A model generated the notes under the pieces. It made no database searches and was not told where the DNA came from. It saw nothing but the letters and a program-made list of their open reading frames with translations. A stretch of 63,150 nt of DNA, counting the filler, from Sphaeroforma arctica JP610 (Eukaryota), in NCBI RefSeq assembly GCF_001186125.1. It is 6 parts of one record of this genome, joined end to end, with 100 filler letters (N's around TTAATTAATTAA, not from the genome) between each part and the next. Parts side by side here need not be neighbours in the genome. Positions count along the whole stretch, not along the records: positions 35,896 to 53,729 come from NW_014040544.1; 5 more parts are not named here. One strand, 5' to 3'. This document shows, piece after piece, positions 30,249-54,945 of the stretch (position 1 is the first letter of the stretch; each line of letters begins with the position of its first letter). A program made the position numbers and the translations under genes.

Positions 30249-31262
30249 CCTATTTGATTTAGCTAGTTTATTAATATGGTCGACAAGTATATTCGTTTTA
30301 AGTATCATAGACCAACAGTCCAACACTGAGAACAAATCAGGATAAGGGAATGGTTTTGGATGTACTGTTTATTTTAGAAGCCTATGACTGGGGGGGTATT
30401 TATTTATTTTATTTTATTTTCTAGTCCTCTTTTATACGTTGTCCCGATTCACTATTGATAAATACGGAATGAGTACAAACCCCCAATACTATTTTCCCCA
30501 ATTTTTTATTACGCTCAGAGACTACGTGATCTCCTTATCATTTTAGTTATCTCTATACTCTCGAGTGAGAGAGAGAGAGAGACAACACCCTTTCACACCG
30601 TTATAAATAGACGGTCACAATGTTGAGAACCATTAAAACCCGATATCTCAAGGCCAGTAAAGGTGGGATGACGCCGATTTTTTACGTATTCGTCTATACA
30701 ACACTCTTATATCATCATACGGAGCCATACACAATATATAGTGGCTTTATTAGCATACACAAGTAACAAGAGGTGTTCACGGGTCGTCACCACTACACAT
30801 CGATTGAATCAATCGGTTACACGTGCATGCATATGTATTGTAAGGTATATACAGTTAATAGCACTGTACTAACGCCGTACCGTCAAAGAGGGTAAATTAG
30901 TAGAGCATATTATATGATATTTAAGAGATCCATAACCATCAGGTGTGCACAAGAAATTGGTTAGGTCGATATCATTATATAGCATTGTGTTTGAAATTTG
31001 GTCGGCCATTGAGTATAGTCTTAACGTACATGAGTACGATACAAGTTTATTAACATTGGGTGCAGGTTTTCTTGTTCTAGTAGTCTATGTTAGTGCCTAG
31101 TTTCTATTATGTTTTGTAGGAATATTCTCGACCCGCGAAAGATGGTGTGCGACATAAATTTGTAGTAGGAATGCAGGATACAAAATAATGCAGGGTAGGA
31201 ACGCTTGAAATTTTTGCAAACACGATATAGGGACCATCAAGTCTCATAGTGTATCGTTGGAA

Positions 31263-34200
31263 CTATGAACTCTTTGTATCGGCATCACACTCGGAGTACT
31301 GACTAGCTTCGTACGCATCACCAAGATCACACCCTTCGTATTCGAACTTGGCAACGAGCTTCACGCCGTAAGAGCCTGATATCTCGTTTATCTGGTTGCC
31401 GCCACCGGTCACCGTACCGATTGCATCGCCATCCACAGTGAATCGCAGTCGTTCGTCACTCTCACTGTTGGTTGTGATCTGGTTTAGCCCTTGCGTGACA
31501 CTGGAGGTGTGTGTCTGCGTTGGGTAGTCAAAGATGAAGTTCTTGGTTGCGCCGGCCTGAATCACAGAGTATTCCGACTGGTCACCGTATTTCGATGCCA
31601 CCAACTGCGCTCCGCCCGACTTCACCGCGACTGTGATTTCCGGGTCACGGAATGTTGCTGTGTATCTGACACCACTAACCTCCTCATTCACAACCCTGAT
31701 TCGGCCCTCAAGGTCGAACTTGGCGGTTGTCTCGATGGCTTTGAGATTGTATTGCAGAGAGCTTTGGTCAACGGGGAACCCGTCTTCGAAAGTATTTTGA
31801 TTAGGTGGGCGATAGAATTTGGCGATATCCAAATCCACAAATGGCAGTCCCAGGGCTGTAGGGAAGTCTACCTCGTAGGTGCACTCACGCACGAATCGGG
31901 CCTTCTGCTCATTACCTGTTTCGTTGTTGAGTACAATGTGATAGTCGCTTGAACATACGGCATAGAGCCACTAGCTTTTTATGTGGCTATGGTGGAAACT
32001 GAATTTATCAATCGGCAAGGTTGTCTCTCTTCTTGCAAGAAGACCGTTCTCTACCTGATTGAATGTACTTAAATGTCAACTCATCTCCTACGAAATCGCC
32101 CAAACACAACACAAAACCACCGCACGCGACTATCTCACACGCTAACTAGCCCTGCTATCGACTCACTTAGCAATGAAGTGAGTAGCATACACACACCTTC
32201 GCACGTGCAGGGGTTGTTGCTGTTGGAGCCGTCGACTCCGCACTCGCTGTCGGGCAGTTCTACCCACGTGTCGCTCGTGCATGCGTCACCTTCTTCTCTG
32301 CACTCGCACTGAAGTTCGGAACCCTGTCTGCCAGCAGTGGAGGCGTATCCGGGTTGGGTGGTGATGGTATAGAAGCCGACCTCAGAACCGGTGCCACAAA
32401 GTACGTTACACTGCTTCTTCTTGTAATTCTCTTCGCAAGCAACTGTGAATGATAGAGATGAGCATGTGTCATTAGTACGATTGTATCTGTGTGTGAGCTA
32501 TGGATTGAAATAAAGCTCCAAATTGGCAAGGTTTTGAATTGATATGAACATGCCAATCGTTACAGAACTCGAAAGCGAAGCTCAAGCAAAGTGTCAATAA
32601 ACGGATATGTCGTATTGTAGCCAAGTAGACACTTTATGACGTCCCTGTATATAATCAACGATACAACAGCCGTCACGGAAGTGAAACCCTTATACATTAT
32701 ATAATAAGCACGCATACCACATGCGCCGTTAGCCGTGCAGCCATTGGGGCCTGCGATGTCTCTGTGTGAATTGATTCTGAAGAACTCTCCCGAGGTGTCC
32801 TGATTCTCGCAGATACTGTAGTAGGGTTGTCAGAACATTGTCATCACCTCTTCGATGCCACAGGCGCAGGCATATACATGTCTTGTGAGAAATAACCCTA
32901 CACTAAACTCTAAACCTTAATAGGCGCAGGTATATACATGTCTTGCGAGAAAGAAACCTACACCTTCACGCCGTGATGATATCGCACAACCGCTGCGATC
33001 CCAGGTTTGTATTACAAGTCTCAAGGGGGCAGGGGCATGGTATATATCTAGACAAAAAATATTTATGTTTTAGTCGGAATCTGAATAAAAACCAATAAAA
33101 CTGCAGTCATATACACACCTGCCGTCTCCGCTAACTCTGACGAAGCGTTCCTTCTGCAAGCAGTCTGTGCCGTCGAACTGACACCGGGGACGGCCATCAG
33201 CAAAGTTATAGTCCTGCCATTGACCCACACACGACTCACACTCACAGTCCTCCGTCACGGTTTCCTCCTCCGGACACCCTCCCATGTAACCCTGCGGCTC
33301 TTCCTGCTGATCGATGACAGTGCGCACCTGTCTGGTGCCTTGGATGGGACTGTCTATAGTGCATTGGCATTTGCCCTGGGCGATGGTGAACTCGCACTCA
33401 CCTGCTGCGGCGGTTCTGTGGTGTAGGGTTTTGGGTTCGGGGTTTAGGGTTGAGTATGCTTGAAGCAGGAATATCAGCTCATATTTTTAACTGGACTCGA
33501 GCGGATCTCAGAGAGTTAAATATCGATTGTACGCTGCCTTAGCAAGTTTTAACGCTCTGTAAACCGTCACAATACACTGCTCGACATCATATCAGGTTAC
33601 CTGATCATAGATGCACGATACTACCTTGGATTGACACGGGAGGAGTGTAGTGTTCAATCGGCCGCAAATAACTAAGGCGTATACTTCAGCTAAGGACTAC
33701 TACAAAGCTATTCAAACTAAAACATATACTTAACCAATGACCACTCCGGAGCCATCCACCCTAAGGCCGTCCTAACACACCTGCAGTTGTCACGGCAGTA
33801 CTGGACATTGCCGTTGACTGAGCTGATCTGGCCTCCCTCGCTGAATGGCGGGTCGCATTGTTCGTTGCGGATGGTGTCTACAGTACCATCGCCACACTCT
33901 TGTTCGACGATCTCACAGTGTCGGCACACTTCGGTTGAGCTGAGTACCTGTTATTGCGCCGTAGCATGTGTGAAGAGTAGTACATGAGCCTCTAAATAAG
34001 CGATAGTATGTGTGAAGAGTAGTACATGAGCCTATTAATAAGCGATAGTATGTGTGAGTAGTGGTACGTGATCCTGATACTAAGTGATAGCATGTGCGAA
34101 GGGTAGTGCTTAGTATATAAACTGTCTGATATGGTCTACCTAGGGGATGGCATGAGATGATCTCTGATGTGAATGGCTACGTACTCCTGTGTGCAAGTGG

Positions 34201-37200
34201 GTGACACCGATAGCACAAACACAAACACTATGCACAGATGATGCTGGTGAGCGTATTTAAGCAGTCGGATCAGAGTGCAAGGATGAACTTAGAGGTTACC
34301 ACGCATAGGGAAGCACACTGTACTCTTGGGGCGTCTACAAATGTGCACCAGTTGCATGGAAGACCGCATTGTACTGTGCCGACTCGTACCGTGATCTTCA
34401 TCAGGCAAGCAAGGCATGTATGCATACTCGCATAACATTCAAGAGTTCCTCACAGTAATACTTACCGCGTCTTGACCCTCGTCACACTCTTCACCGTTGC
34501 CAGTATCCACAACGCCGTTGCCGCATTCGCATACGCAGATACCATCATCTGTGATCGTGGCCATGTCATCGGAGCTGCAAACGCACAAAACAAACAGTAG
34601 CGCCAGGTGAGCGAGCGAACTATAAACTCTGACTGAAAACAAGACCATGCGCCGTAAGTGGTTATTAATGCCAATACGTCATAGTAGTACATAAGATGTG
34701 TACGTGTGTGATGTACACCATGTAGTCACTGGTACGCACATCCAGAACATACTCAAAGGTGATGGCATTTCCATTGCTGTCGTCGCAGTCGGCTCCTCGG
34801 GGTGTCTTCTCGCGCGTGCGTGTGTATGTGCGCGTGAACGTTCCGCTGCTGCACACACAACGCGACGTCGAGATGGCCTGTGTGATATGAGAAGGACGAT
34901 GGATTAGACAATCTATCTTAGGAGTATAAGAAAAGAAGATCTGGTCTTTACGCTTCACGAGTATAGTTAAAAAGGCATGTCCTTTACACTCGTGTGGTAG
35001 GCTCGTGCGCTGAATGGCAGTGTTTCTTAGATCACACAGATGCCTAGTTGAGTATGAAACTCCGGGTCAGTGTTGTGCTGTCAATGTGTACATGTGTCAT
35101 TGAAAATAAGTAAGTGAATGAAGATGTGGTTGTAGCTGTAGTTGTTTGTCTTCAATACTGCTAGGGATTGCTGTTGGGTAATATCTCATGCATGTGATCC
35201 TTCGCCATACACACGCTACTGTAATGATACCAGATATCTTCACCAAAGATACAGCACGCACGACGGATCTTTACAGGTATCGAGTCAACAGTATTGGTCA
35301 CCCTATGGATATTCCAAGTATGGCACATGAACGTATCAAATCTCATACATAGTCTACCCTAAGACCTATCCTTTCAATTGCAGTATTCCAAACAAGTGCT
35401 CTATTCCTTCTGATGGCTATGGTAGTAATGACACAACCATATAAAGCAAGCCTCAAAGCTGGTCACATACTCTGCAGTTTCGGATGGGCTGCAATTCACA
35501 GTTGGCGTCACAGTAGTTGTCGTCGTCGCTGTCATTGGGTCCAATGCTATAGTCATCATCGTTTCTGGTTCTGATATCGCCTGATCCGTCGGGGTTGGTT
35601 TCACACTCTTCGTTGTCGGTCTTGACACCGTCTCCACATACGGTGGCCTGTACTGTGCATGCTTCACCGTCGTCTCCGGGCTTGCGGCATCGGTTGTTTG
35701 AGGGGTCTACGGAATCGTCTGTCATATGCGAGGGATAATAATGGTAGAGAGACACAAGAGTGGGCCATGTTAGCGTCAGTATATACAAAAAAGAANNNNN
35801 NNNNNNNNNNNNNNNNNNNNNNNNNNNNNNNNNNNNNNNTTAATTAATTAANNNNNNNNNNNNNNNNNNNNNNNNNNNNNNNNNNNNNNNNNNNNGTGTG
35901 TGTGTGTGTGTGTACAATACATCTGCGATCAAAATAATTGTTGTCATTTGAACGATTTTCTAATATCACTATATATATGTGTGTGTGTGCGTGTGTGTGT
36001 TTGTGTGTTTGCACGTGTGTGTATTTATGTATATACATATATACCTGCCTAAAATGGTTTGTGGATGTACTTCCTGGATGTGCTTACCTCGAATGGCGAA
36101 CTGCTCAGAAATGTGTCCGTCACGAAGTACACGTCCGTGATATTCTGCATTGTTTTGGAGAGAAATATTAATTTAGTTGGTAAGTATCGAAAAGTGAACT
36201 CCTATTGAAGCTCTGTTCTGCGAGTAATCGCAACAGGAAGGGAGCTACCGATTTTCCCTAAACCCTATACAAAAGAAAAAGCATCTTATGTTCTTCCTAA
36301 ACCACAAGACTACATATACAGACATACTTCTCCTGGCGCTAGAGGAACGTCGCTGTCCACTTGTCTGGGAATTACTACTATCTCGACCTCGGTGTTGGGC
36401 ACTGTAATGGTTGTTCTGGCCTGGTATATGGCCGTGTACGAGTTTTGGTTGTCCTCCTGAGTATTCTGGATCATCAATGACCCACTGATCTGCCCGGTGG
36501 TGGCCAAGTCGATGGCTACGGTTGTAAAAGGAATGGTTCGCAAAATTAGTCCTAGTTTTCTGTGGTAGGGTAATACAAGAGATATGTGTATCACGATATA
36601 TACTTAGATGTTTCTGCATTAAATCCGGATGAGACGTTTATCCCGTATGCGTTAAACGCATCTGGCTTTCAGCTTCACTGTCTCCATGCAGATCGTGCGA
36701 CACAACACCAAACCGCACTATCAACCAGGACATAGGTATGACCAAGAAGCACACCCCAGCCCATACACACCAACCCACACACACATACCCCGACATCCAC
36801 ACAACACTCCCATTAACATATCACATGTACGCGGAGACACTCTCTTACCGATCAAATCGGCATTGGTAATGGCCCTATTGAACAGCGGAACAACCAGTTC
36901 CATGTCTTCAAAGTCCGTCTTTACTTCGCCAGTGGTTGCGGCGCACACGCGCTGATACTCCTTCAACTCTCGGCACACAATGACCTGACAGGTACCGGAG
37001 TCGCACTGTCGGTTGGACTGCAGGCAGGATAGGCCGGTGTACTGTGGTTCGTTGGGGAGTTCACAGTCTACGCTGAACTCGGACGCCTCGGGAACTAGCC
37101 ACTTGTCAATGGCGGAGAAGTACTCGCACTGTTCTGTGCCGGAGATCACATCGTCGCCGCAAGTCACGCAGCTGTGTTGAGAGATCATGTGAAGACGTGA

Positions 37201-40200
37201 AGTAGTTAAGCATAAGGTCTGTCTGGGCAGTCTTAACCATAACCCGATCAACGGCAACCCCTTAGTCGCAGATAGTAAGTCTCTGGTCTGGCAATACCCC
37301 ACCCACACACCACACACCCAACATATACACTTCCCCAGCAACTCACCAGTTTTCACAGTCCGCATCAGTACACGTGGCGTCGCCAGAGGGCAGCTGATCT
37401 CCAGTGCAGTCGTCGGGATCACACAGACGGTCTTCACAGCAGTTAGAGCAGCTGGCATCCTCACAGTCATCGTCTGCAAAGAAACGCTGACCTGGTGTGC
37501 ACGTGTTACCGTCGTCCGCACAAGTCTTTTGTCTGCGGAGTGTGTGGGAGAAGGGTGTGTGGGGTCAGCAGAGGTCGCCAGGGCCAGGCTTTTTGACGGG
37601 GCTGTTTATAGTTGTTGATATCATTATATATATATATATATATACATACATACATATACATATACATATACATATATATATATGTGTGTGTGTGTGTGTG
37701 TATGTATGTATATATATATATATATGATATATGCAACAGAAAGATCTTACCTGCAGCACTTGGCACAGTTGTCTCTGTCGCATGGTGTACCGCCGGGAAA
37801 GGCTTCCACTTCACCATTGTCGGTGTCGCAGTCATCCGAATCTGTGCCGCAAACCAGCTGTTTGCAACTGCGGTAGTGCGAGGTGTGCTGTGTATGTGAG
37901 TGTTGAGATATAATACTGGGAAATGCGAGGTTTGTAGTCGTGTGAGGTGCACCTGCTGTAGCTGTGGGGCGGACATGTCTGCTTGAGATACGCATACAGA
38001 ATATAACAAGACTTAAATTCACAGTACAAACGACTTGCGCAGCATGTGCAGCAACAATAGCATGACACACTTCCGTGGCCAATATACATAAACACTGTCA
38101 ACATAAATAGATGCAAATCATGCTAGCACCAACCCATCTCTCGCTCTACTTATCACACATACCAATTCGTGCACAGATCTGGTGCCGCCTCTGAGCACAA
38201 CCTGTCGCCCGAGGGACCCAACCCAGCCCCACAATCGCCTCCAAGCGTATTCGCCAGATCAGAAGTACAAGCCACCGCCACACAGCAGTCGCTGCAGTCG
38301 TCTGTCTGGCAGTTGTCCTCACCGCTAGACCGGGTGCCGTCCGGACAAGTGGGGAACGCTACAGCGCATGTTTGCTGCGTGCAGCAGTTGTCGCAACTCT
38401 GTACGTCACAGTCTGTGTCTCCGCTCTCGATGCTGCCGTCATCGCAGTCAACGTTGCTGCATAGCTGGTCAACGCAACTGTGACAGGACAGGCATTGGTG
38501 GAGGTGTTGGTATAGTGTAAGTGGAGGTATAAGTACGCATGCTTCCCGCAAGTTGAATACAGTTTCCAATAAGGGCTCCGTACTGCATAATGCATATTAA
38601 TATCTCCGACTACACACACATGCCGGAACAAACAGATTAAAACTTAGAGATACTATATTCTCAGTAAGACTTACTACACCCTCACCCAATGTTAATATGT
38701 GTCACGTAGAACATCGATATAATCGTAACAATCCTTCCTTTCTTATCAAACATCCACTATAGTAAGATTTGATAGACCGATTGCACAATCTCAGCAACAT
38801 GTCTGTTACTCCCCAACAGCTGCAAATGCAAATAAGCACACGCACGTATCATTGCACTTGCACTTCTCAGCAGCTCAACTGTAACCCTCCAACAGTCCCA
38901 TATGCAAATAAGCGCACACACGTATTACTGCCCTGTACATACCAATTGGTGCATCCGTCGTTTCTGCAGTTTTGGTTTCCGCTCTTGACCTGCACACCAA
39001 GGCATGTCACATCGTCGCAAACCAATTGCGTGCAGCTGGGCGTTTGGAGAAGAGGACAAACCAAAACAAAAATGAATGCTCAGGTGTGACTATGGTTTTA
39101 AAGATTGCAGAATGCAGCGAGTTGTGAAGGAATTGGGAAGGTCGTCTGTTGTTGGCACTACACATAGCCGGTAGTTGGGCCTATTGCGCCGACAACACCT
39201 CCACAAGGACACACTCGTATCATCTGTACTTCGTCTTCTTCTTTAGCGCTATGGCTCCTACACTCTCCCTACACACTCACACGCAGCAATAACACTGACC
39301 TACGTATTCTCCACGACTCCCATCGACTCACCAATTGCCGCAGTTACGGTCCGTACAGAAGGTCTGTGTGTTGTCAAACACCAGCCCGGGATCGCAGCTG
39401 TCCGCATCGCAGGTGCGCACTTCACAGCAGTTGTCACAGTTCGCATCTGTGCACGTAGAGACGCCGGGCACAGCATACTCGCCCTGGTCAGAGTCACACA
39501 CGCGGTCGGCCGAGCATGTCTTGGCTGTGCAGCAGTTGGCGCATCCCTGTAGTGGTGGGATAGGTAGACAGACGTAAGACAGTGGATTTGCAATTGGGGT
39601 CATTATCAGGGTTAAAGACAGTCTTTGGTTTGGTTGTTCTGTTGGGTTCTAATCTTGGGTTGACATGGCGTGCACTACGGATAGGCGGCACCTCGTCTCA
39701 TATCACAGTAGCAATTAACTCAGTGTCAGTGGCACTTTAAATCACAAACATAGTACCTTGTTAGTAGCACTCTAATTCACAGCAGCAATAGCACTTCAAA
39801 CATGCTGTCCAGATATTCAATACCAAACCACAATTTACACAACACATACAGATACTCCATATTGTCATACAGACCAGATGGCTTGCCTGAGTGTCGCAGT
39901 TGGTGGCGGCTGTCCGCTTCTCCGTCGGCGCACATGTGTTGTCGTCGTCACAGGTTTTGAATTGGCAACAGTTTGTGCATTGCAGGTTAGCGCAATCTGA
40001 GTTACTGTTGCTGTCGTCGGCCTCAATACCGGCGCCGCGCTCGGCGCAATTGACATCGGCACACACCAATTGTTCGCAGCTGGGTATGTAAGTGGGATAT
40101 AAAAATAGAACCCTACATGTGAGTGCTCAACGATAAAGTGCTGGGCCCATACAGAGACCTAAACCTTAAACCCTAGTCGTATGTATACCCACACACCCAC

Positions 40201-41449
40201 TGGTTCACAGCCCCAGACACTCACACCTATCTGCACCTACCAATTGCTACACGCATCGTCGTCGCAGTTGTTCTGGTTAACCCGCTCCTCCTGTCCAGGG
40301 CCACAGACGTTATCTGTCGCACATGTCAGCTGCCGGCAGCAGTTACTGCAGTCACTATCCTCACAATCCGTGTCTGTCGTGCGTTCCTTTCCAGCATCAC
40401 AGACTGGATCACAGGTTAGCTGTGTGCAACAATTAGCACAGGTGCTGTCGTCGCACAGAGTGTCGTCGTGTCCGTTCTTCTCCTCGCCGGATACGCAGGG
40501 ACGCTCCACAGAGCACACCAGATCGTCGCAACAGTTGGAGCAGCGGTTGTCTGTACGAAAACATTTGAATATATATGAAAGGGAAGGTAAAGTGTTACTT
40601 TGTGCAGTGATTAGATCCTGATATAACAGTACATATAAAAAGGGAAAGTAGAGTTGTGTGTGTGTGTGTTGGTGTATGTATTTGTATATATGTATGTCAC
40701 TTTTTTTAGTGTTTAGATAACGGTGTGTGTGCGCCTGATACAACAGTACATATAGAAATGGAAAGTAAAGTTGTGTGGGTGTGTGGGTGTGTGGGTGTGT
40801 GGGTGTGTGTGTGTATATGTATATATGTGTACAGTGTTCAGATATTGGTGTGTGTGCGCCTGATATAACAGTACATATAAAAATGGAAAGTAAAGTTGTG
40901 TGTGTGTGTGTGCGTGTGTGTGTATGTAAGTATATATGTATGTCACTTTGTGCAGTGTTTAAATAATAGTGTCTATGCGCCTGATACATTAGTACACTCA
41001 GCACTATGCCACTTACTACCTTTAAAACTACAATGCATCGACAAAGCACCACGCCAACACTGTACACGCACACCTAAACCCACTAACCATCGCAATCAGT
41101 GTCCCCAGACTCTCTCTGGCTGTCGGTGCAGGTGACATCGGCGTCACACTCCAACTGTTCGCAGCAGCCCGAACAGTCGCCGTTGATGCAGAATCTCTGG
41201 TCCGTGTCGCGCTGGCCAGATGGACAGCGGAACTCAGAACAGCGATCAGGTACGCAGCTATAGGTATGATTAATTATATATTGATATATAATTAACTATA
41301 TACTATGTGAGAAAGATATGGGATGGGAAGGTGCAGTAATTGAAATTCGAGAAGAGTGAGTCCAGGTGTTTGGTTCTGAATCGATACGCACACAGGCAGT
41401 TCAGGCTGAAAGTGCGTCGCCACACACATNNNNNNNNNNNNNNNNNNNN

Positions 41450-41535
<86 letters not shown>

Positions 41536-44500
41536 AATTGCTACAGGAATCCACGGTGCACAGCTCATCCACCGATTCGACCTCTGTGGCATCGCACTCG
41601 ACATCAGCACACACTCGCTGTACGCAGCAGTTGGCACAGGAGTCCGTTGTGCACTCGGTATCATCCTTACGAATGATACCGGCTCCACACGTGGTGTCGG
41701 CACAAAGCTGTGAACGAATATGAAACGAGTTTGAGTGAGAGATCTGTATGCGAGGCGTATCTCTGAGCACAAGCACCGTGGTCAGCCTAATGCGCAGGCC
41801 CATCGCACCAGCAACATGCTAAGTCGTACCAGCTATTGCACTACAACCGAATACAACTGGATGCAGTTTACACCCTGACATTCGCGGATGAATTGTTATC
41901 GAACCGCTGTACCCAACGAACTTCCCGCCCTGACTTCAACAAACAACTACGCACAAAGCTCCATCAACACGTGTTCCAGTACACACTCACCAGTTGCTCG
42001 CAGCAGTTGGTTCCTTGGGAATCCGAGAAGGTCTCGTCGCCGCTTCGCACCAGCCCAGGGCCACACGTGCGACTGCTACAGTCCTCTAGTTCACAGCAAT
42101 TCGAACAGTTATCCGATGAACAGTTTTCATCTCCGGTCTCGTACTCGTCTGTACGGCACGCGTCATCTGCATTGCATGTCAACTGCCTACAGCAGCCATT
42201 GCAGTCGTCGTCTGCGCATTGTTCCTGGTCGGTGCGCTCCTCTCCCGCCTCACACTCAAACTCTGAGCACAGCAGAGGCTTGCAGCAATTCGCGCAGGAG
42301 TCCGTGTTACAGTCCTCTCGCGGGGTCTGCTCAAAGCCGTCCCGGCACGGACGTACCTCGGTACAGGAGCGTTGCCTGCAGCAGTTGGTGCATTCGTCAT
42401 CGTCACACACAGTGGCGGAGGTTACCATCTCCCCAGGCACACACTCGTGGCTGCCACACACCAGTTGTCGGCAGCAGTTAGAGCAGGCGTTGTTGGTGCA
42501 ATCCGTTGCTCCGGTGCTCACAAAGCCTGGCGCACACTCCGAGATCTGAACCGCACACGTTCTACGCACACAGCAGTTGGAACAGTCGTCGTCCACACAG
42601 TCCTCGTCCGAGGTTTGCTCGAAGCCTGGATTGCAGCTTTCATCGGCACACTTGCGTTGCACACAGCAGTTGTCACAGCCATCCTCCTCACAGCGCTCAT
42701 CCCCACTGGGTCCCTCTCCAGGCACGTTGCAGGGGTTGTTAGAGCACAGCTTGGGCCGACAGCAGTTGTCGCAGTTGTCTGTGGTGCAGTCGCCCTGGCC
42801 GGGAATAGGCACAAAGTTGGGTGGGCACTCATACGCATCGCACGTCAGTTGGGTGCAGCAATTCACGCAGCTCAGCGTAGAGCAGTCCTCTACCTCCGAG
42901 TTGCGCACCTTACCTTCGCCACAGAAGCCGTCTGTGGCACAGGTCAGCTGCTCGCAGCAGTTGGTGCAGTCATCGTCTGTACAGTTCAGGTCGCCTGTGG
43001 CCGCCTCACCGCCTGAGCATGTGGAGGGGTCACAGACAAGCTGTGTGCAACACTCTGTGCACTCGTCTGTGTCACATGTGGTGATGTCGGCGTTCTTCTC
43101 TTGGCCAGCGGGACACTCGTGGCCGGAGCACAACAGGGCCCGACAACCTGTGGGAGTGCAATGTATGTGGGAGTTTGTGAAAGTCTTCTGGATGGCAACT
43201 GACACATTCACATATCATGTGGGTTTCAACAAGTTCGTTCATGGCTGTGAAGGGGATAATATAATAAACAAATATACGCCTTTGCTTACTCAAAGCAATC
43301 GTTATATGGATATATACACTATATTAGATAGACACTGAGGAGGTACCATAAAAGATGTTGGCAAGCACCACTTACCAATGCACATGGCGTGGTAGTTGTG
43401 CTTTACGATGGTCCCACAATGCCGATAGGCAATAAACTATCCATCCCCAGCACATGCACTTGCACGAGTACAACCAACAGACTGAACTCATTATTAGTTC
43501 AGCTATTCAGTAACTTACAATTGGTACATTCGTCATTGGTACAATTAACCGCAGCGGTCTTCTCAAACCCGTCATCACATGTGATTGGGGCGCAGGTCAG
43601 CTGTTCACAGCAACCGTCGCAACTCACATCAAGACATTCCACAAGTGCAGTTTCAGTGAAACCAGCAGCGCAGTCCTAAAAGGAAAAGGAGTGCCGTGCG
43701 AAACGCGATGTGGATAATAAATATGGGCGTAGAGTTTTTGCGATCACTTGATTGCATTTGATGTAAATAAAACAGTTGCTTGACAGAACATGGATGATGA
43801 ACATACAATAAAAGACACGTTTCAAAAAGCAACGGACATACGTGCAGACCAGGATATGTTGTGACATTTGAGAAACTAATGCAATGAAGTGATATAAACC
43901 TGTCAATGAATTTGATTTCATGCTGGGCAAACATGAGTTTCCTATTCCTATCAACATAGCACCAGTTGTACATCGGGGGTGACTTACCGCGTCTTCGACA
44001 CAGGTCTTGGCGAGCACACAGCAGTTAGTGCAGTCGTCGACAGAATCACAGGTATCCTCTCCGGTACGGTCAAAGCCTGGTGGGCACGTATTTGCGCTGC
44101 AGGAGATATCCTTGCAACAGTTGGCGCACGAATCAGAGGTACACTCGGTTTCGCCAGTCTGGACGCTATCAGGGTCGTCACAGTCAACATCTGCGCACAG
44201 CAGTTGGTCGCAGCACTGTGTGCAGTCTTCGTCCTGGCAGCTCTCGTCAATCTGCTCAGCGATTCGCACCGATCCAGGGCCACAGTTGGCATCTTCTCGG
44301 CAGGTGATCTTACGGAAGCATCTGTCGCAGTTCCCGGGCGATATATTCCCGAGATCGTCACGGCAGAACACCAGCTCAGTGCGTGTCAAAAACGGATCGG
44401 GTATAGGGTTGCCCCGACATAGGTTCTCAGAGGGTGTGCCTATGCAACACTCTTCACAACTCTCTGAGGTGCACTCCAATACGCCGGTACGAGCAGATCC

Positions 44501-46429
44501 AGTGGGACATGTCACGTCGTCGTCGCAGAGTATCTTACGACAACAGTTTGCGCAGATGGCATCATCGCATTGTTCGTCGCCTGAAATGGTTAGACCCACC
44601 CCGCACACAACGTTCTCACAGCTGTCTTGTTCATCACTACCGTTATCACATGGCGGACAGGGAAGCAGTCCGTTCCAGTTGTTACCTGTGGTGTAATATA
44701 AACGTCAGATCGAGCGGAACCAACGAAGGCTGTTTAAACGGCTTCTAGTGCGAATCATAGAATGCAACTTGCCATGACTAACTGAGCGCCAATGGGTAAA
44801 GACAGCACACATCTAAAACTGAACTGAACCTCATGTATGCAATACAGTACGCTTTATATGAGAAGCACAGCCGTACGCAATCGATAGCAATCAGCAACCG
44901 AAACATGATAAATGCCGCCGTTCTCACATACGAAAACTACGCCACCCATATATGCGAATTCAGAACAATGTAGCATCTTAGTTCGAATGTCGCTTTTCTT
45001 TGGAGTCGCCTATATTTTCTTTACTTACCGAACAATGGAGACTGTGGGCATGGGCAGAGCGTTGGTAAGCAAACGGTGATGACAGGTCCGGTGAAGGTAT
45101 TCTCGCAAAATAAATTCTCGTACGCACAGAAGCTCGCAGAAGCACAGTCGGACGTAACATTCACCGTGTCACAGGCGAATGGCGTGCACATGAGCCCTTC
45201 TGAGATGAAGTTAGGACTGCACACGGCACAAACCCACTCGAAAGCACCGGATGTGGGATTGTACCAGGTGCTCAGCGCCATACAGTCACTGGGGAGGGCT
45301 ATAGAGGTAGGGAGGTTCCAATGGTGAGTGGTTAGACTATGGCATCAGCACTATCAGCACTACGCCCGCGAGATATCAAGAATACCGATGTTCATCCCAA
45401 AGAGAAGCACAAAGTGTGTGTTAGTGGGTTGTCAATTGCGTTGAGCAATTCTGTGTTAGGTTTTAGGTTGTAGTTCTATTTTTGAGTTGCGCTACGTATG
45501 CTTCGGATGATTTGAACGAAATCTTCTTACAGTGGGTCCGAGTACTAAACAGATCAAGTAAATAATGGAGACCTGAACATGCCTTCAGAACTCCCATTTG
45601 CATTTCATACCATTTTCAAAGGATATTGGCAACTTACAAACTACACGATCAAACCAGTGGAGGTGAATATTCAGCCGACATCACGTGCACATTACAATTG
45701 CATACACAATAATCCCGATGACTTGTGAAGATGGCATACTTAAACCTGTACAAATATATTCAACCACACATTGATACACTTACCTGGTTCGGGTCCGGGG
45801 CCCAGGGGTGTGAGTGATCCACTTGGGTCGGGCAAGGTAATGCCACAGTACTCGAAACCTGCCACGGAAGTACTGTTTAGCGCACACTGTGCGATTCCAG
45901 AGTACGTGAGATTCAGGACTGCTTGCTGGCAAGCATCTTCACAGACTGTTCCTACGATGGTCGACATAGACTTGTTGGCAGTTCCCGTTGTGTAATAATC
46001 CAAAAAGTGCATTGGATGCTCTGCAGTGCACCCAGGTGACTCACATATCAAATCATTCAGTTCGGTCTTAATTGCTTGAAAGTCTGCAAATGTGAGGCTG
46101 CCCCTTACACAGAGCTCTACTACTGAGCAATTAGGCGCATTTAACAGACCACATTCGTTAGCTTCAACTAAACGCGTCACCACGACGGTCTCTGTCTCGA
46201 TGTCGGTTTCGTATTCAGTGATGCCACTCTGAAAGGCATCGCCCATGTCACTCGTTTCTGCAGTCATAGCTGTGCTGGATATTATACCATTTCCTGTGCC
46301 TGATCCCTTATTTCCGATGATCGGTCCAGCACCACCCACCTTCACCAAGTCTGCCTTGACAAATGTATTTAAAGACGCGATCGCGGCCAAATATCCGATG
46401 CCCAGAGGCAGCGTACAAAGGTGCATCAT
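31263..46429 (-). CDS. Giant secreted cysteine-rich protein (~25 exons, roughly 2000-2500 aa): signal peptide, ~38-40 six-Cys repeats, myxococcal-type CG(D/N)G...E(E/Q)C(D/E) repeats, TSP1-like bits and a C-terminal beta-rich domain
   Basis: ATG at 46429 (MMHLCTLPLGIGYLAAIASLNTFVKA). Repeat exons lie between ~44686 and ~37387. CGDDVISGTEQCE, CGDGVKTDNEECE, CGNGVVDTGNGEECDEG and CGDGTVDTIRNEQCDPP lie at 37170-33780. The last exon ends at the stop at 31263 with no TM. Continuity across the gap at 35796-35895 is assumed from shared motifs. Confidence 0.8.
33960..34112. repeat. Intronic tandem repeat, ~43 bp x 3-4
   Basis: tag(c/t)atgtgtga.gagtagtacatgagcct..aataagcga is repeated. Confidence 0.8.
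40617..40995. repeat. Intronic tandem repeat, ~120 bp x 3, with (GT)n cores
   Basis: cctgata(t/c)aacagtacatata.aaa.ggaaagta.agttgtgtg occurs at ~40617, 40734 and 40859. Confidence 0.8.
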
Positions 46430-48429: not shown

Positions 48430-49540
48430 GGCCCGATACATGAAAACCCCCTCAAAACAACACTGGCTAGCTGCACAACGTATTTTCCGTTATCTGAAAG
48501 GTGTGGTCAAAACCAAGTATCACTTAGTGACGAGTGTTAAGTCTGAAATAAGTGAGCTCAGTCAGTAAATCACGATCCTATGGGAAATGAGACTTTCTCT
48601 AGCATTGGGTTCTGTGAAAATATTCGCCTCCATGGTTTTAGATCAGTCATCACTTCTATCTTATTAAATTCTCAATTCCACTAATTGGTCCGGTCCTTTG
48701 GTCCGGTCTGCTCAAATATTCCTCTGGTCCAGGTCCGGTCCTCAGAGCCGGTCCTAAATATCTACCTAGGGTACTTTGTCGACAAAGGTACATCACATCT
48801 CGGACTCACCTATAAATACCAACAGGGATCTCCTATTGCTGACGCTATTTCTGACGCCGACTATGCCGCCTGCCCTGATACTCGTCATTTCACTACAGGC
48901 TGGTCGCTTATGGCATGCATACACTCATCAAATCCATCCTACTCGGAATGGAGTTCCGTCAAGCTGCTTGCGATCCTTACCTATTCATCGCCCATAGTGA
49001 TAACCTAAAGTGCTTTGTACTTCTCTATGATGATGATATCCTTTTTTGTGGCCATCGACCAACCGATGTCGATGACTTTAAATCACTTCTCCAAGCCGAG
49101 TTCAATTGTAAGAACTTAGGCAAACCCAGTTGGATATTGGGTGTACGTGTGCTCACCACGTCGGACTTCATCAGCTTAGTGCAAGACATCTACATCCGCG
49201 ACGCCTTATATACCTTCAAATTAGCTGAGAGTCATCTGTACACCCTGCACCGACCCCGTCAACATAAGATATAGTATCTAAAATATACCGGTCCTTGCCA
49301 CAAGTGTGCATACCCTAAATTTATCGGCACGCCACAGTATCTATCTGTACTCACACGTATTGATATGAGCTACGTCCTCAATACATTAGATCGATACATG
49401 GAGAACCCCTCCCAACAACACTGGCTAGCTGCACAACGTATTCTCCGTTATCTGAAAGGTAAATCACATCTCGGACTCGTCTATAACTACCAACAGAGAT
49501 CTCCTATCGCTGACACTATTTCTGACGCAAACTATGCCTG
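48430..49540 (+). mobile_element. Fragmented Ty1/copia pol (RT/RNase H) relics
   Basis: DPYLF, LLYDDDILF (degenerate YVDD), LGKPSWILGV, ENPSQQHWLAAQRILRYLKG (also at ~48440-48503) and SDADYAACPDTRHFTTGW, rearranged and interrupted. Confidence 0.88.
48510..48760. repeat. Dispersed repeat with an inverted counterpart at ~59695-60085
   Basis: gagtgttaagtctgaaataagtga.ctcagtcag and ggtccggtcct..ggtccggtc are reverse complements of ctgactgagttcacttatttcagacttaacactc (~60040-60073) and ggaccggaccagaggaccggacc (~59737-59759). Confidence 0.75.
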
Positions 49541-49603
49541 TAGGGATAATATTATTTATTTCAAAGGAGTTAAGTTACAATGTTTGTACATATGGTATGG
49601 CTC

Positions 49604-50290
49604 TCATAGCCGTTGTAGTGGTTCTGGGAAGATCGATGGGAAGAAGTGGTCATTAAATTCCCTGTTGAAGCTTGGACCAAGTGAGTCGACAATGGAGGAT
49701 ATGCGCTGGGTCAATTCAGGCCGGTGCTGACAAAACACTGACACCATCGAGTGTGCCACGTATTCGCTTTCTGGTCTACTAAATAGCGTACCCACCTCTG
49801 TGGTTCGGATCGGGTATTTGTCGTGTAGTGCTGTGGAATGGGCTAGTGCAGAGTACGAAATGCCAAGTAGGACCAGGTTATCTGTCATATTTCGGTTAAG
49901 GAGCGAGGTTGGAGTTAAACCGATGCCGCACCAGACCACGGATGCACTCGGTATGTGCTGATTTGCCTGTATTAGAAGTATCATAGGCGGAACCAACAGG
50001 CACGATGAATTGGTTTGGACCGAAATTTGGAAGTAATACTTCAACCGCGTGATTAGTCGGGGTATAGGAAACATCTGTTGATATGTCAGAGACGGGTGTG
50101 GGTACAGGGGTTGTTCTACATGCTAGAGAAAATATCCAAGGTGTTCGTGGAGGGTCCAGATACCATGGAAGTCGTGGCGCTCCTGTAGTTGCTGGAGAAG
50201 ATCAGGGCCGATGAGAGGCAGTTTTGGGCTTACTAGGATGCATTGGATCAGTTGCTGGATGCAGGCAAAGTGGCTGGTGGTGAATTTTTG
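49604..50290 (-). pseudogene. Decayed ORF of an unidentified repeat family (copy 1)
   Basis: HFACI...IGPDLLQQLQERHDFHGIWTLHEHL...KYYFQISVQT...LLVPPMIL...SVVWCGI is matched by the copy at 60094-60555, and its C-terminal part by ~59490-59690. Confidence 0.7.
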
Positions 50291-51549: not shown

Positions 51550-53545
51550 ATAGTCTTTGCATCAAACGTGCTAAGATCACACATCACGCACCGTCTGCCT
51601 TCCACGCGAGATCATTTATGGTGAATTGAAATCAGCAAACAACACACATACATAAGGGGCCTTGATACTTACCCTCAGTTATATACTGATGGTGTTTTTA
51701 CTAGTGTTCACCCACTTGGGTTGGCCAGGGTAAAACCTCATATGATCAGTATGAGAAACCTTATGCAGAACACTTTAGCACACAGATATATTTTCTAAAA
51801 ATAAATATATCATATTCTCTGTGTACTACACTCAGTCTCGGACCTCGGCTCTCGGCTAGCCGGTGGCCCGTATCCTATAAATAGAATAACCTGAGAAGAA
51901 GTCTCAAATTACTATTACGTTCTCTCGGGCTGACCCACCTATACTTATATTAATTGAGAACAAGTCCCAGATTACTCTCGGGCTGACGACGTAAAACGTT
52001 ATTAACGTATACAGAAATACGTCTACTACTGTAGTCTCTCAGGCTGACAGACTCAATGTATTTACAGAGGAAGAAACGTTGTTAATAAATGCAAATGATA
52101 TAAATTATCAACCTTTATCTATCTTTAATTCCCGCACCACGAGACCAACGTTTACACATGGACATACAAATCAATAGCAATTCATACAATGCACTAGTAG
52201 ACTCGGGTGCACAACGCTCATGCACGGACAAAAGTGTAGTATCATAACTATATCTTTCAGTTAGAGCGCAACCGGGTTATATACAACTAGCACAAACAAA
52301 TGCAAGAATACAACGCACTGGTTCAACAGAAGTTTGTGACATTAACTATGGAGGTAGAAAGACCTCTCGGTGTTTTTAAAGTATTGGACTTACCTGACAA
52401 AAAGACACCAATACTTCTAGGTAGGGACATTCTACCATACATAGGTATATACATAGCAGGGGTAATCAATCCACTTATACCCACAGATGCAAGATGGGAA
52501 TTACTCCTCACACCACATGAAGAGGACCCAGAGCATGAACAAGAAGGTCTCAGAGAGTCACTTACAGACCTTCTAGATACCAATGCAAATATACCTTCTG
52601 ATGTACATTGCAACCTACCAGGCTTCACAGTCACAGTACTCGCAAATGAAATCAACGTCAGACAAATGAGGCACGCTAACGGCAATTTTGTACATCACAA
52701 ATATATTCCACAAACGGATGAGAATTCGCAAAGGTGGCTTAAGGATGGTTATATATACAAACGTGACACACCCACAACGGTGAACCTACCGTTGTTATCA
52801 ACAGGTAAACATGACCAAACAGGTCTCTTCAAGAAAGTAAGGACATGTCTAGACTTACGTGAGATCAAATATCAATATAAACAAGATAATTTTGTGTTAC
52901 CGAAAATAAAGGAAGTATTACACGACCTCCAAGGAGCACAATTATTTTCGAAGCTAGATCTTACAGGAGGATTTCACCATTTCCTGGTAGACGAAGCAAG
53001 CCAACACTTCTTCACATTCTCGTGGAGAGGAGCGCAATACTCATTCAAGTCTGCGCCGTTTGGACTACACTCACTCACAGCACAATTCCAATGAGTCATG
53101 GCAAATCTGCTCATAGACATCAAAGGAGTGCAAGTGTATGTAGATGACATAGTCATTGCAAGTCTTACGGAGGAAGAACACCGCAAACCAGTTCGTGAAG
53201 TAATCAAGCGACTGAATGGTGCAAACTTCCGACTCAATCACAACAAGTGTGCCTTCGCGGTCAAAGTGGTCAACATACTCGGTGTGAAAGTCACCACACA
53301 GGGACTCAAAGCAGACCCTGAGAAACAGAAAATAATGATGGACTGGCCACTACCCAGAAGAAAAAGAGATCTGCACAAAGCAGTGGGACTAGCAAATTAC
53401 ATGCGAGACCGTGTCCCTAACTTTGCCCACACAACGAAACACTTTCGGAACCTAAAATGAACCAGAACATATCCATGTTATGGACTCCGGAACTCAAACA
53501 GAAGTGGGAAGAACTCAAAGAAGCCATTGTAATAGCCGGGCCTCC
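51550..53545 (+). mobile_element. Decayed Ty3/gypsy gag-pol: degenerate CCHC knuckle, aspartic protease, reverse transcriptase and connection region
   Basis: LCIKRAKITHH..C at ~51556, ALVDSGA at ~52191-52211, PILLGRDIL, RTCLDLR, FSKLDLTGGFHH, APFGL, VYVDDIV and WPLP. There is a frameshift after the protease active site and an in-frame TGA at 53092. Confidence 0.92.
51671..52043 (+). mobile_element. ~370-bp dispersed non-coding element (copy 1), inserted between gag and protease
   Basis: Closely similar to 59129-59490 from accctcagttatatactgatgg to tgtagtctctcagg. An inverted 3' fragment lies at ~58965-59043. Confidence 0.85.
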
Positions 53546-53829
53546 ACATTAGACTCTATGTTATAAACGTACTCTTAATAGTACGAGGAACTTAAGTTTC
53601 CTAAATGGTTTTTAATGGTTTTGTTAATTAATACCTTTTCCATTTTACATATCAGATATTTGGACGAGACCATTAAAAGGTCCCAGTAAAATACCAAACA
53701 TAAGATTTGGTCTAGTTCTATTAATAGAGNNNNNNNNNNNNNNNNNNNNNNNNNNNNNNNNNNNNNNNNNNNNTTAATTAATTAANNNNNNNNNNNNNNN
53801 NNNNNNNNNNNNNNNNNNNNNNNNNNNNN

Positions 53830-54945
53830 TTTAATAAATCCGTACGTGAGTTACTAGCCACTGACTGGAAATGTAATCCCAGGTGGTTTGAAATGGCTCA
53901 AAAGATATTTGGGCCACATAATATAGATATGTTTGCTGCACATCATAATGCACAACTATCGAATTACAGGACTTTAAATCATCCTTTGGGAGACGCCTTT
54001 CAAATAGACCTCTCCAAACTTAATGCGTGGGCTAATCCACCATGGCAGTTAATTGCCCAGCTATTAAATTATGTTAATATACATAAAGCTACCATCACGG
54101 TGTGTTGCCCATTACGGAGTAAAGATCCATGGCTCAATAAATTAATAAGCATGATACAATGCGAGCCAATATATTTAGATAGGGAAGTAGATACTTTCCT
54201 ATATCAGGGTACCCGCCTGAGCCGTCCAGAAGACGGCCTGGTGACACACTATAATATGTCGTATAGGTCCCATTGGAACAACCAAATGGACCCCTTCTGA
54301 GACCTTCCTTAAAAAGGTCAAAGAATTGGAGATTCCCCTCTCCACTAGAATGAACGTAAAACAGTTCAAAGACAACACAGCATTTGAAGTCTGTGCACAA
54401 GAGATACAATCTACTACTGACACTACAGGTAAGAAGCGTCAATCTCTAGCTCGTACTTTCTTTAATAATATAAAGTCCAAGCCCGAAGTCTTTCAGACAC
54501 TCTTTCTAAAGGGATTAATGAAAGATATTCCCGAATTATATACACATATAATGCAACTATTGAGCAAGTCAGGTGTATCAAACGCACAAGAGCGCACTAG
54601 TGACACTCACGCAAAAGAAGGACAGGAGTCTGGAAACACTACAGATTTAGAGAACACGCAAGTGGATTCTCAACGCCCTTCCTTTATTCTGGAAGAGCAG
54701 AATGATGATAACATTCTCGCTTGGCTGACGTAAAACCATAAACTCAAGCACCAGAATATAGTAGACGCACTTAAAGATGCTAAGCGAAATGGGATCGCGC
54801 ACCCTAAGTTGGCAACTTAAGTTGACAGAGTAAATCAGTCATGTACAGACCGTGAACTCAACCAGATTGAGCGCTATGGGTTCGCACCGCTTAAGAGTGT
54901 GACAGAAGATGTTCCATGGCGCAGGGTCATCAACAAATAATTGAA
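53830..54945 (+). mobile_element. Retroelement pol fragment: N6-adenine DNA methyltransferase-like (DIRS MT/Dam-like) domain, linker, then gypsy-type integrase HHCC zinc finger
   Basis: Open from the gap: DWKCNPRWF...FGPHNIDMFAAHHNAQL...DAF...WANPPWQLI (NPPW at 54034). After one frameshift and stops: NHKLKH-x30-SCTD(R)ELNQIERYGFAPLKSVTEDVPWRRV (54734-54930). Confidence 0.8.

What the first reader, a model, noticed from the sequence alone, without database searches (positions are those of the whole stretch)
37387..44686. Array of ~38-40 six-cysteine repeats in a giant secreted protein
Seen: an acidic ~31-33 aa unit, consensus LxC-x4-6-C-xxG-x8-9-C-x4-C-xN-CC, repeated about 38-40 times by hand count, 12 of them in the single exon ~43147-41991. 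I do not recognise it as EGF, TIL, LDLa, vWC or furin-like. Inference: a rod-like, disulfide-rich, possibly Ca2+-binding cell-wall or extracellular-matrix protein built from a poorly described module.
Basis: partly seen in the sequence, partly recalled or inferred. Interest (0 to 1): 0.7.

Follow-up and report, generated by a model that had tools for sequence, protein, structure and literature searches.

The report
Disulfide-stapled stalk in ichthyosporean secreted protein
This gene of a walled single-celled relative of animals is spliced into one message for a 2,544-residue protein with 38 copies of a six-cysteine module that no Pfam or NCBIfam family matches; the module likely arose from the bacterial-type Myxococcus cysteine-rich repeat and likely forms a long disulfide-stapled stalk in the cell wall or outer matrix.

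Summary
Confirmed. The minus-strand gene 46429-31263 is spliced as one message: single contigs of 7,964 and 7,958 nt in two studies span it. It encodes 2,544 aa, of which 424 nt fall in an assembly gap. Residues 324-1568 hold 38 units, x4-C-x4-6-C-x11-12-C-x4-C-x2-CC, 12 of them in exon 43147-41991. No Pfam or NCBIfam family matches the units. Named relatives are ichthyosporean: Creolimax (34 units), Abeoforma (5 units, different head) and Sphaeroforma; two further hits are unnamed metagenome proteins. The other 10 of 15 profile hits are Myxococcus cysteine-rich (TIGR02232) arrays. The unit keeps their C-x11-C and C-x-N-x-C frame, shortens the acidic 10-residue loop to 4 and adds two cysteines. 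Two degenerate units lose C3+C4 and C2+C6 as pairs, the pairing solved for that motif in PAPP-A; C1-C5 follows by elimination. Six of 12 introns in the array sit at one site, which points to growth by exon duplication. Downstream lie TIGR02232-like motifs and a bacterial-type choice-of-anchor E domain; no membrane anchor was found. Best reading: a disulfide-stapled stalk between a swappable head and a conserved base in a wall or matrix protein. Site-specific Ca2+ binding is doubtful. Function is untested.

The parts
31263..46429 (-). Whole coding gene: 25 exons in the window plus 424 nt of exon missing from the assembly; 2,544 aa
   Evidence: record arithmetic 5268+424+1943=7635 nt
46352..46429 (-). 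Likely signal peptide, aa 1-26 (cleavage after VKA, judged by eye; no predictor run)
   Evidence: highest hydropathy window of the protein; the Creolimax ortholog aligns across the site
44633..46351 (-). N-terminal head, aa 27-323, 22 Cys; no family; replaced by an NHL-type propeller-like region in Abeoforma
   Evidence: (36% over 176 aa to Creolimax)
37168..44632 (-). Array of 38 six-cysteine units, aa 324-1568, over exons 3-15
44540..44632 (-). Unit 1, the most Myxococcus-like unit of the array (10.8 bits against a profile of bacterial units)
44315..44443 (-). Unit 3: C2 and C6 lost together (as I align it; an alternative register is possible)
41991..43147 (-). Exon 5 with 12 units
42000..42092 (-). 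Unit 20: C3 and C4 lost together
38943..39035 (-). 93-nt symmetric phase 2-2 exon equal to one unit, cut inside the C5 codon at both ends
37120..37161 (-). First TIGR02232-like motif, two residues after the last CC
   Evidence: (11.5 bits, below cutoff 20.8)
36088..36963 (-). Choice-of-anchor E-like domain 1; runs on into the gap
   Evidence: NF033208: 17.2 bits on one 62-aa exon; 48.2 bits against cutoff 23.8 in the Creolimax ortholog
35796..35895 (.). Assembly gap (N); the 424 nt of exon missing from the window most likely lie here
33781..35718 (-). Three further TIGR02232-like (CG[DN]G...E.C) motifs
   Evidence: 9.6, 15.1, 10.5 bits; weak DUF4215 hit
32197..33415 (-). Cys-rich segments that resemble thrombospondin type 1 repeats by eye only
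   Evidence: sequence; no Pfam or PDB hit
31326..31895 (-). C-terminal domain, likely a second choice-of-anchor E-like copy; followed by a short acidic tail with no anchor
   Evidence: hhalign to domain 1: 136 columns, P=0.0056, probability 6.5%; no family hit

Best explanation
The 38 six-cysteine units likely form a long, semi-rigid, disulfide-stapled stalk in a protein that is likely secreted and likely held in the cell wall or outer matrix without a membrane anchor. Shown: the gene is spliced as one message; the order is head, array, conserved base; unit number and head differ between species while the base is shared. Inferred: each 31-33 aa unit folds alone with three disulfides (C2-C6, C3-C4, C1-C5). 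The near-invariant 4-residue linker fixes the step between units, so the array would space the head some 50-100 nm from the base (rough estimate from module size, not measured). Inferred origin: a Myxococcus-type four-Cys repeat of the base lost its acidic Ca2+ loop, gained a third Cys pair and was multiplied by duplication of a one-unit phase 2-2 exon. Inferred anchoring: the choice-of-anchor E-like base binds wall polymer or other copies of the protein.
For: Architecture: Creolimax CFRG2606T1 aligns at 38.5% over 1,458 columns and 38.6% over 651 columns and has 34 units; Abeoforma has 5 units, a propeller-like head and the same base at 32%. Linker of 4 residues in 35 of 37 window units and 32 of 33 Creolimax units. 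Two-unit model with a 25-row alignment: pLDDT 87, pTM 0.58; short strands at C2+4..6 and at C6..+2. Ancestry: 10 of 15 hits among 1.84 billion proteins are TIGR02232 arrays. Spacing is (4,11,10,3) in 99 of 132 bacterial units. The 13 matched non-Cys columns score above permuted columns, p=6e-5, loop alone p=0.001. PAPP-A pairs C867-C895 and C880-C891 (PMC9780223 Table 1), C867 being the Cys of its CGDG; mapped onto the unit this gives C2-C6 and C3-C4, the two pairs lost together in units 3 and 20. Introns: 6 of 12 at one site, about 1e-7 by chance. Constraint: in a relative, 15 of 30 listed changes in the array are silent against 28% expected, and 0 of 15 amino-acid changes hit Cys; only 40 of 82 differences were shown. 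No transmembrane or GPI-like tail.
Against: No localisation or functional data exist for any member. hhalign probability to the bacterial repeat is only 67.5% over 17 columns (4.7% global), and the match rests largely on two Gly and one Asn; several matched columns score negative. C-x-x-G is common in Cys-rich repeats (own knowledge), so convergence is possible. The model has a bridge between the residue before C1 and the residue before C3, which does not by itself favour C1-C5. pTM 0.58 leaves the angle between units uncertain. 141 residues in the gap were not seen. With no anchor, retention at the surface is unexplained.
Confidence: 0.55

Rival explanations
1. The array is itself the wall material: after secretion the units swap intrachain for interchain disulfides and cross-link into a mesh, as minicollagen/NOWA cysteine-rich domains do in cnidarian capsules (recalled).
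For: 18% Cys, six Cys ending in CC, and many copies. Ichthyosporeans have thick walls (PMC11286789 passages). The last Creolimax unit has a seventh Cys.
Against: The window's array has an even Cys count, and Cys are lost in pairs, as expected for fixed intrachain bonds. Abeoforma has only 5 units. The spacing differs from the minicollagen pattern (recalled).
Confidence: 0.2
2. The array is a polyanionic cation sponge (Ca2+ or Mg2+) that gels or stiffens the outer matrix, and length is secondary.
For: 260 Asp+Glu against 72 Lys+Arg. D/E/N make up 46-65% at C3+2 to C3+4. The related PAPP-A M3 domain binds two Ca2+ (PMC9579167).
Against: No invariant acidic position in 78 units, whereas the bacterial repeat has D or E at 92-100% in five columns. 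The loop that carries three of these columns is deleted.
Confidence: 0.12
3. The module is unrelated to the Myxococcus repeat and is an ichthyosporean (or wider protist) invention with convergent spacing; it may be the same as the undescribed six-Cys repeat of diatom CaTrailin3.
For: The units fail the TIGR02232 and DUF4215 cutoffs. Two unnamed metagenome proteins carry the same unit in other architectures, one with a likely membrane segment (P0009, P0013). The CaTrailin3 repeats have six Cys and match no known domain (10.1101/2023.03.06.531300 passages).
Against: No named diatom or fungal protein was among the 15 hits (names were looked up for 10 of 15). The spacing, Gly/Asn positions, paired losses, a transitional unit 1 and adjacent TIGR02232-like motifs all agree.
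Confidence: 0.25

Closest known systems
Myxococcus cysteine-rich repeat (TIGR02232, Pfam PF13948 DUF4215; IPR011936 per the diatom preprint); motif at the start of PAPP-A M3; also annotated in COLQ
   Same: Period 31-32 aa, acidic, C-x11-C with Gly at +3 and +8, C-x-N-x-C end, tandem arrays in long proteins; inferred nested disulfides
   Different: Six Cys instead of four; 10-residue DDGN..D loop cut to 4 residues; 5-residue insertion with a new Cys; invariant acidic residues lost; below family cutoffs
Creolimax CFRG2606T1, Abeoforma Awhi_evm1s6439/8647/13232, Sphaeroforma SARC_12525
   Same: Same unit; same base in the Creolimax and the two longer Abeoforma proteins; CFRG2606T1 is a full-length ortholog
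   Different: 34, 5 and about 5 units (fragment); the Abeoforma head is propeller-like; none has a functional name in the sources
Bacterial choice-of-anchor E domain proteins (NF033208)
   Same: Domain above cutoff in the Creolimax ortholog
   Different: No PEP-CTERM, LPXTG or type IX sorting tail; eukaryotic intron-rich gene
Diatom adhesive trail proteins (Trailins, Ca5255)
   Same: Secreted eukaryotic proteins with bacterial-type choice-of-anchor domains or Myxococcus repeats, no membrane anchor; one has 11 unclassified six-Cys repeats
   Different: Choice-of-anchor A rather than E; PTS-rich; identity of the repeat could not be checked
Minicollagen/NOWA cysteine-rich domain (recalled)
   Same: Six Cys ending in CC in a wall-forming secreted protein
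   Different: Spacing 3-3-3-3 and about 18 aa, against 4-11-4-2 and 31 aa

Membership tests
Myxococcus cysteine-rich repeat (TIGR02232/DUF4215) | Score above the curated cutoff | tested here: not met
   0 hits at E<=1 for exons 3 and 5 and for whole P0004, P0005, P0019, P0006
Myxococcus cysteine-rich repeat (TIGR02232/DUF4215) | Ca-x11-Cb and Cc-x3-Cd spacing with Gly at +3 and +8 | tested here: met
   (G 71% and 49%; C4-x-N-C5-C6)
Myxococcus cysteine-rich repeat (TIGR02232/DUF4215) | 10-residue acidic loop Cb-DDGN-x4-D-x-Cc and invariant CGDG and E | tested here: not met
   loop is 4 residues in most units; no invariant D or E
Myxococcus cysteine-rich repeat (TIGR02232/DUF4215) | Nested disulfides Ca-Cd and Cb-Cc as in PAPP-A | tested here: inconclusive
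   paired losses in 2 of 38 units agree; no model coordinates seen
Myxococcus cysteine-rich repeat (TIGR02232/DUF4215) | Ca2+ binding (two ions in PAPP-A M3) | not testable with these tools
   for PAPP-A only
Myxococcus cysteine-rich repeat (TIGR02232/DUF4215) | Same fold as PAPP-A M3 | tested here: inconclusive
   fold searches listed no PAPP-A chain
EGF, TIL, LDLa, vWC, furin-like and other Pfam Cys-rich domains | Pfam profile match | tested here: not met
   0 families at E<=1 for the 6 repeat-bearing exons scanned and for P0004
Choice-of-anchor E domain (NF033208) | Score above cutoff 23.8 | tested here: inconclusive
   met in the ortholog (48.2); the window's domain is split over exons and a gap, 17.2 on one exon
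Choice-of-anchor E domain (NF033208) | C-terminal sorting or membrane anchor | tested here: not met
   hydrophilic C-termini in the window, Creolimax and Abeoforma proteins
Fibrillar adhesin (head, repeat stalk, anchor; definition recalled) | Adhesive head domain | tested here: inconclusive
   no family for the head; propeller-like in Abeoforma
CaTrailin3 six-Cys repeat | Cys spacing (Table S6 of the preprint) | not testable with these tools
   bioRxiv supplements closed; main-text passages give no consensus
Minicollagen/NOWA cysteine-rich domain | C-x3-C-x3-C-x3-C-x3-CC (recalled) | tested here: not met
   spacing 4-11-4-2

The most novel reading that the evidence does not exclude
Ichthyosporeans build their wall or matrix from their own family of giant fibrillar proteins, assembled from bacterial surface-protein parts (choice-of-anchor E domains and Myxococcus repeats, possibly acquired laterally). 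In them a new module arose by trading a Ca2+ clamp for a third disulfide; it was then amplified by exon duplication into a species-specific ruler of 5 to 38 units that carries interchangeable heads. This would be the structural matrix protein that Pfam-based searches of the Creolimax secretome missed.
Probability: 0.2. Interest if true: 0.72.

Novelty: new variant of a known kind. Interest (0 to 1): 0.47.

Why it matters
A Pfam-based search of the Creolimax secretome found no candidate matrix proteins (PMC4739763, passage), and a thick wall was cited where transfection of two ichthyosporean species failed (PMC11286789, passage). This gene gives a concrete, conserved and expressed candidate, with an ortholog in a species that can be transfected. 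It also offers a traceable case of one disulfide module turning into another, with the parent motif, a transitional unit, paired Cys losses and the duplicated exon all in one gene. The unit merits its own family model.

Tried and rejected
No whole genome is held for the window, so paralogs could not be counted; the six frames of the window hold no copy outside the array. Word-indexed protein searches gave little: exon 5 against proteins of 675-2,000 aa found 0 of 768 candidates; the Creolimax base found only itself among 7,984; the two-unit profile found only P0006 among 5,219. The single-sequence fold failed (pLDDT 47). Fold searches with the good model: Foldseek PDB 0 matches; VIA wide 1 of 48,161 at Z 2.0, rmsd 3.0, 44 aligned (CRTAC1); viral 0 at E<=0.001; pdb_via had nothing to compare. 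These do not show that the fold is new. PDB sequence searches gave only RING-finger chance hits or nothing. ESM Atlas: best score 0.89 to an unnamed eukaryote cluster, a weak lead; nothing for the C-terminal domain. Contig scans: 0 of 63, 0 of 32 and 0 of 53 pattern matches confirmed; they find close relatives only. No run is on record as RNA. Creolimax secretome table: no Cfra_2606 and no 2389-aa entry; the mapping of ids is assumed, and an absence there shows nothing about location. Eight paper searches listed no description of this protein or unit; most subscription journals are not held. Earlier findings: none. Lateral transfer of the choice-of-anchor E domain was not tested by a tree. No complex prediction was run. 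Artefact (chance, microsatellite, pseudogene) was rejected. A metal-thiolate role was considered and set aside, because the protein is likely secreted and loses Cys in pairs.
Full report
OBSERVATION. The region is a eukaryotic, intron-rich gene on the minus strand. Joining exons at canonical sites (one GC-AG intron at 39886) gives an open frame of 1,756 aa from ATG 46429 to 36088 and a second part of 647 aa ending at stop 31263. Between them lies an N gap (35796-35895) with a phase mismatch. Residues 324-1568 hold 38 units of 30-43 aa, mostly 31-33, at genomic 44632-37168; 12 lie in exon 43147-41991. The pattern is x4-C1-x4-6-C2-x11-12-C3-x4-C4-x2-C5C6. It matches 36 times, against a mean of 0.10 and a maximum of 2 in 2,000 shuffles. 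The array is 18% Cys, with 260 D+E against 72 K+R and no Trp.

ONE MESSAGE. Runs holding 0.47 of the words were laid on the locus. In three studies the contigs skip the predicted introns: 15 of 16 joints are listed in the 5' part (the last follows from record positions) and 7 of 7 in the 3' part. The DNA run laid on the 3' part shows none. Two contigs (7,964 and 7,958 nt) span the whole coding region. Record positions show 424 nt between 36088 and 35718 that are not in the window, which restores the phase; the protein is 2,544 aa. The runs are labelled RNA only by guess. In a relative's run, 40 of 82 differences were listed; of the 30 in the array 15 are silent (28% expected) and none changes a Cys.

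RELATIVES. A two-unit profile against 1.84 billion representatives gave 15 hits at E<=0.001. Five carry the same unit: Creolimax CFRG2606T1 (2,389 aa, 34 units, a full-length ortholog), Abeoforma Awhi_evm1s8647 and its cluster (5 units), Sphaeroforma SARC_12525 (fragment), and two unnamed metagenome proteins, one with 7 units and a likely membrane segment. The window is therefore most likely an ichthyosporean; window unit 37 is nearest to a SARC_12525 unit. The other 10 hits all pass TIGR02232. Units are diverged: 28 of 36 window units have their best match in the window rather than in Creolimax, but one diagonal of the two arrays scores highest (13.8 against a mean of 7.4), so part of the array probably predates their split.

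ARCHITECTURE. A likely signal peptide (aa 1-26, by eye and hydropathy) is followed by a 297-aa head without a family, the array, and a base of about 1,000 aa that the three species share (32-43%). The Abeoforma head differs and matches NHL-type propellers (best E 1.4e-6). The base opens with a TIGR02232-like motif two residues after the last CC. A choice-of-anchor E domain follows (48.2 bits against cutoff 23.8 in Creolimax; 17.2 bits on one window exon), then further CG[DN]G motifs, segments that resemble thrombospondin repeats by eye only, and a last domain weakly like the first choice-of-anchor domain (136 columns, P=0.0056, probability 6.5%). No membrane segment or GPI-like tail is seen; 141 residues were not visible.

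WHAT THE UNIT IS. The repeat exons match no Pfam or NCBIfam family. Bacterial units read x4-Ca-x11-Cb-x10-Cc-x3-Cd in 99 of 132 cases. Setting C2=Ca, C3=Cb, C4=Cc and C6=Cd keeps the 11 and 3 spacings, Gly at +3 and +8, and the Asn after Cc. The 13 matched non-Cys columns beat permuted columns (p=6e-5). hhalign gives only 67.5% over 17 columns, and several columns score negative. The differences are a loop cut from 10 to 4 residues, loss of all invariant acidic residues, a new Cys in place of the residue before Cd, and a 5-residue insertion with another Cys. PAPP-A has a CGDG motif at C867 (PMC9579167 supplement rows), pairs C867-C895 and C880-C891 (PMC9780223 Table 1), and binds two Ca2+ in that domain (PMC9579167 passages). 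The mapping predicts C2-C6 and C3-C4. Independently, unit 20 has lost C3 and C4, and unit 3, as I align it, C2 and C6. C1-C5 is by elimination. Unit 1 is the most bacterial-like unit of the array. I put common ancestry at about 0.7.

HOW IT GREW. Six of the 12 introns in the array fall at phase 2 inside the C5 codon, and a seventh one base away; chance is about 1e-7 for the six. Exon 39035-38943 is exactly one unit. This points to tandem duplication of a symmetric one-unit exon with later intron loss and gain (inferred).

MECHANISM. A variable head, an array of 5, 34 or 38 units with a near-fixed 4-residue linker, and a conserved base is the layout of a stalk. I infer a secreted, semi-rigid, disulfide-stapled spacer of roughly 50-100 nm (estimate), held in the wall or matrix by its base and presenting the head (0.55). 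Rivals are cross-linking by disulfide exchange (0.2) and a cation-binding gel (0.12); on origin, a convergent module (0.25). A precedent for secreted protist proteins with choice-of-anchor domains or Myxococcus repeats and no anchor is the diatom adhesive trail (10.1101/2023.03.06.531300, passages only). Its CaTrailin3 has 11 unclassified six-Cys repeats whose consensus is in a supplement that I could not see and that may bear on novelty.

PAPERS SEEN. PMC4739763: passages, one part of supplement 3 and searches in its supplements. PMC9579167: passages, supplement rows and review-file passages. PMC9780223, PMC11925022, PMC8667818, PMC8963540, PMC6855841 and PMC11286789: passages. Minicollagen/NOWA, the thrombospondin likeness and the fibrillar-adhesin definition are recalled.

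VERDICT. Real and expressed. An uncatalogued six-cysteine module, not a member of TIGR02232 but likely derived from it, in an uncharacterised ichthyosporean protein family. New variant of a known kind; interest 0.47.

Noticed in passing
window 801-5710 (+): Likely a surface protein with SdrD_B / carboxypeptidase-regulatory-like domains (E about 1e-22), a hydrophobic segment and an Arg run near its end: a second bacterial-adhesin-like gene in the window. Exons not joined.
   Followed up: partly
window 21907-24294 (-): RNase H1 gene pieces (Cauli_VI and RNase_H domains).
   Followed up: partly
window 48685-49730 (+) and 52291-54300 (+): Broken retroelement pieces: RVT_2 (copia-like), then RVT_1 followed by a Dam methyltransferase-like frame, the latter suggestive of a DIRS-type element (recalled).
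   Followed up: partly
window 35840-35850: An 11-base TAATTAATTAA island between two N runs, probably a scaffolding filler.
   Followed up: no
window 39547-39886: GC-AG intron inside the array, consistent with the spliced contigs.
   Followed up: yes
window 43148-43518: Intron one base away from the shared intron site (phase 1 instead of 2 in the C5 codon), a possible case of intron sliding.
   Followed up: partly
P0009 (unnamed metagenome protein): Seven units with C1-x2-C2 in several, then a likely membrane segment and tail: the module also occurs in another architecture and perhaps another lineage.
   Followed up: partly
window 31059-32224: Run X16 has extra contigs across the last intron and a separate one at 30579-30891: possible intron retention or another transcript.
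   Followed up: no
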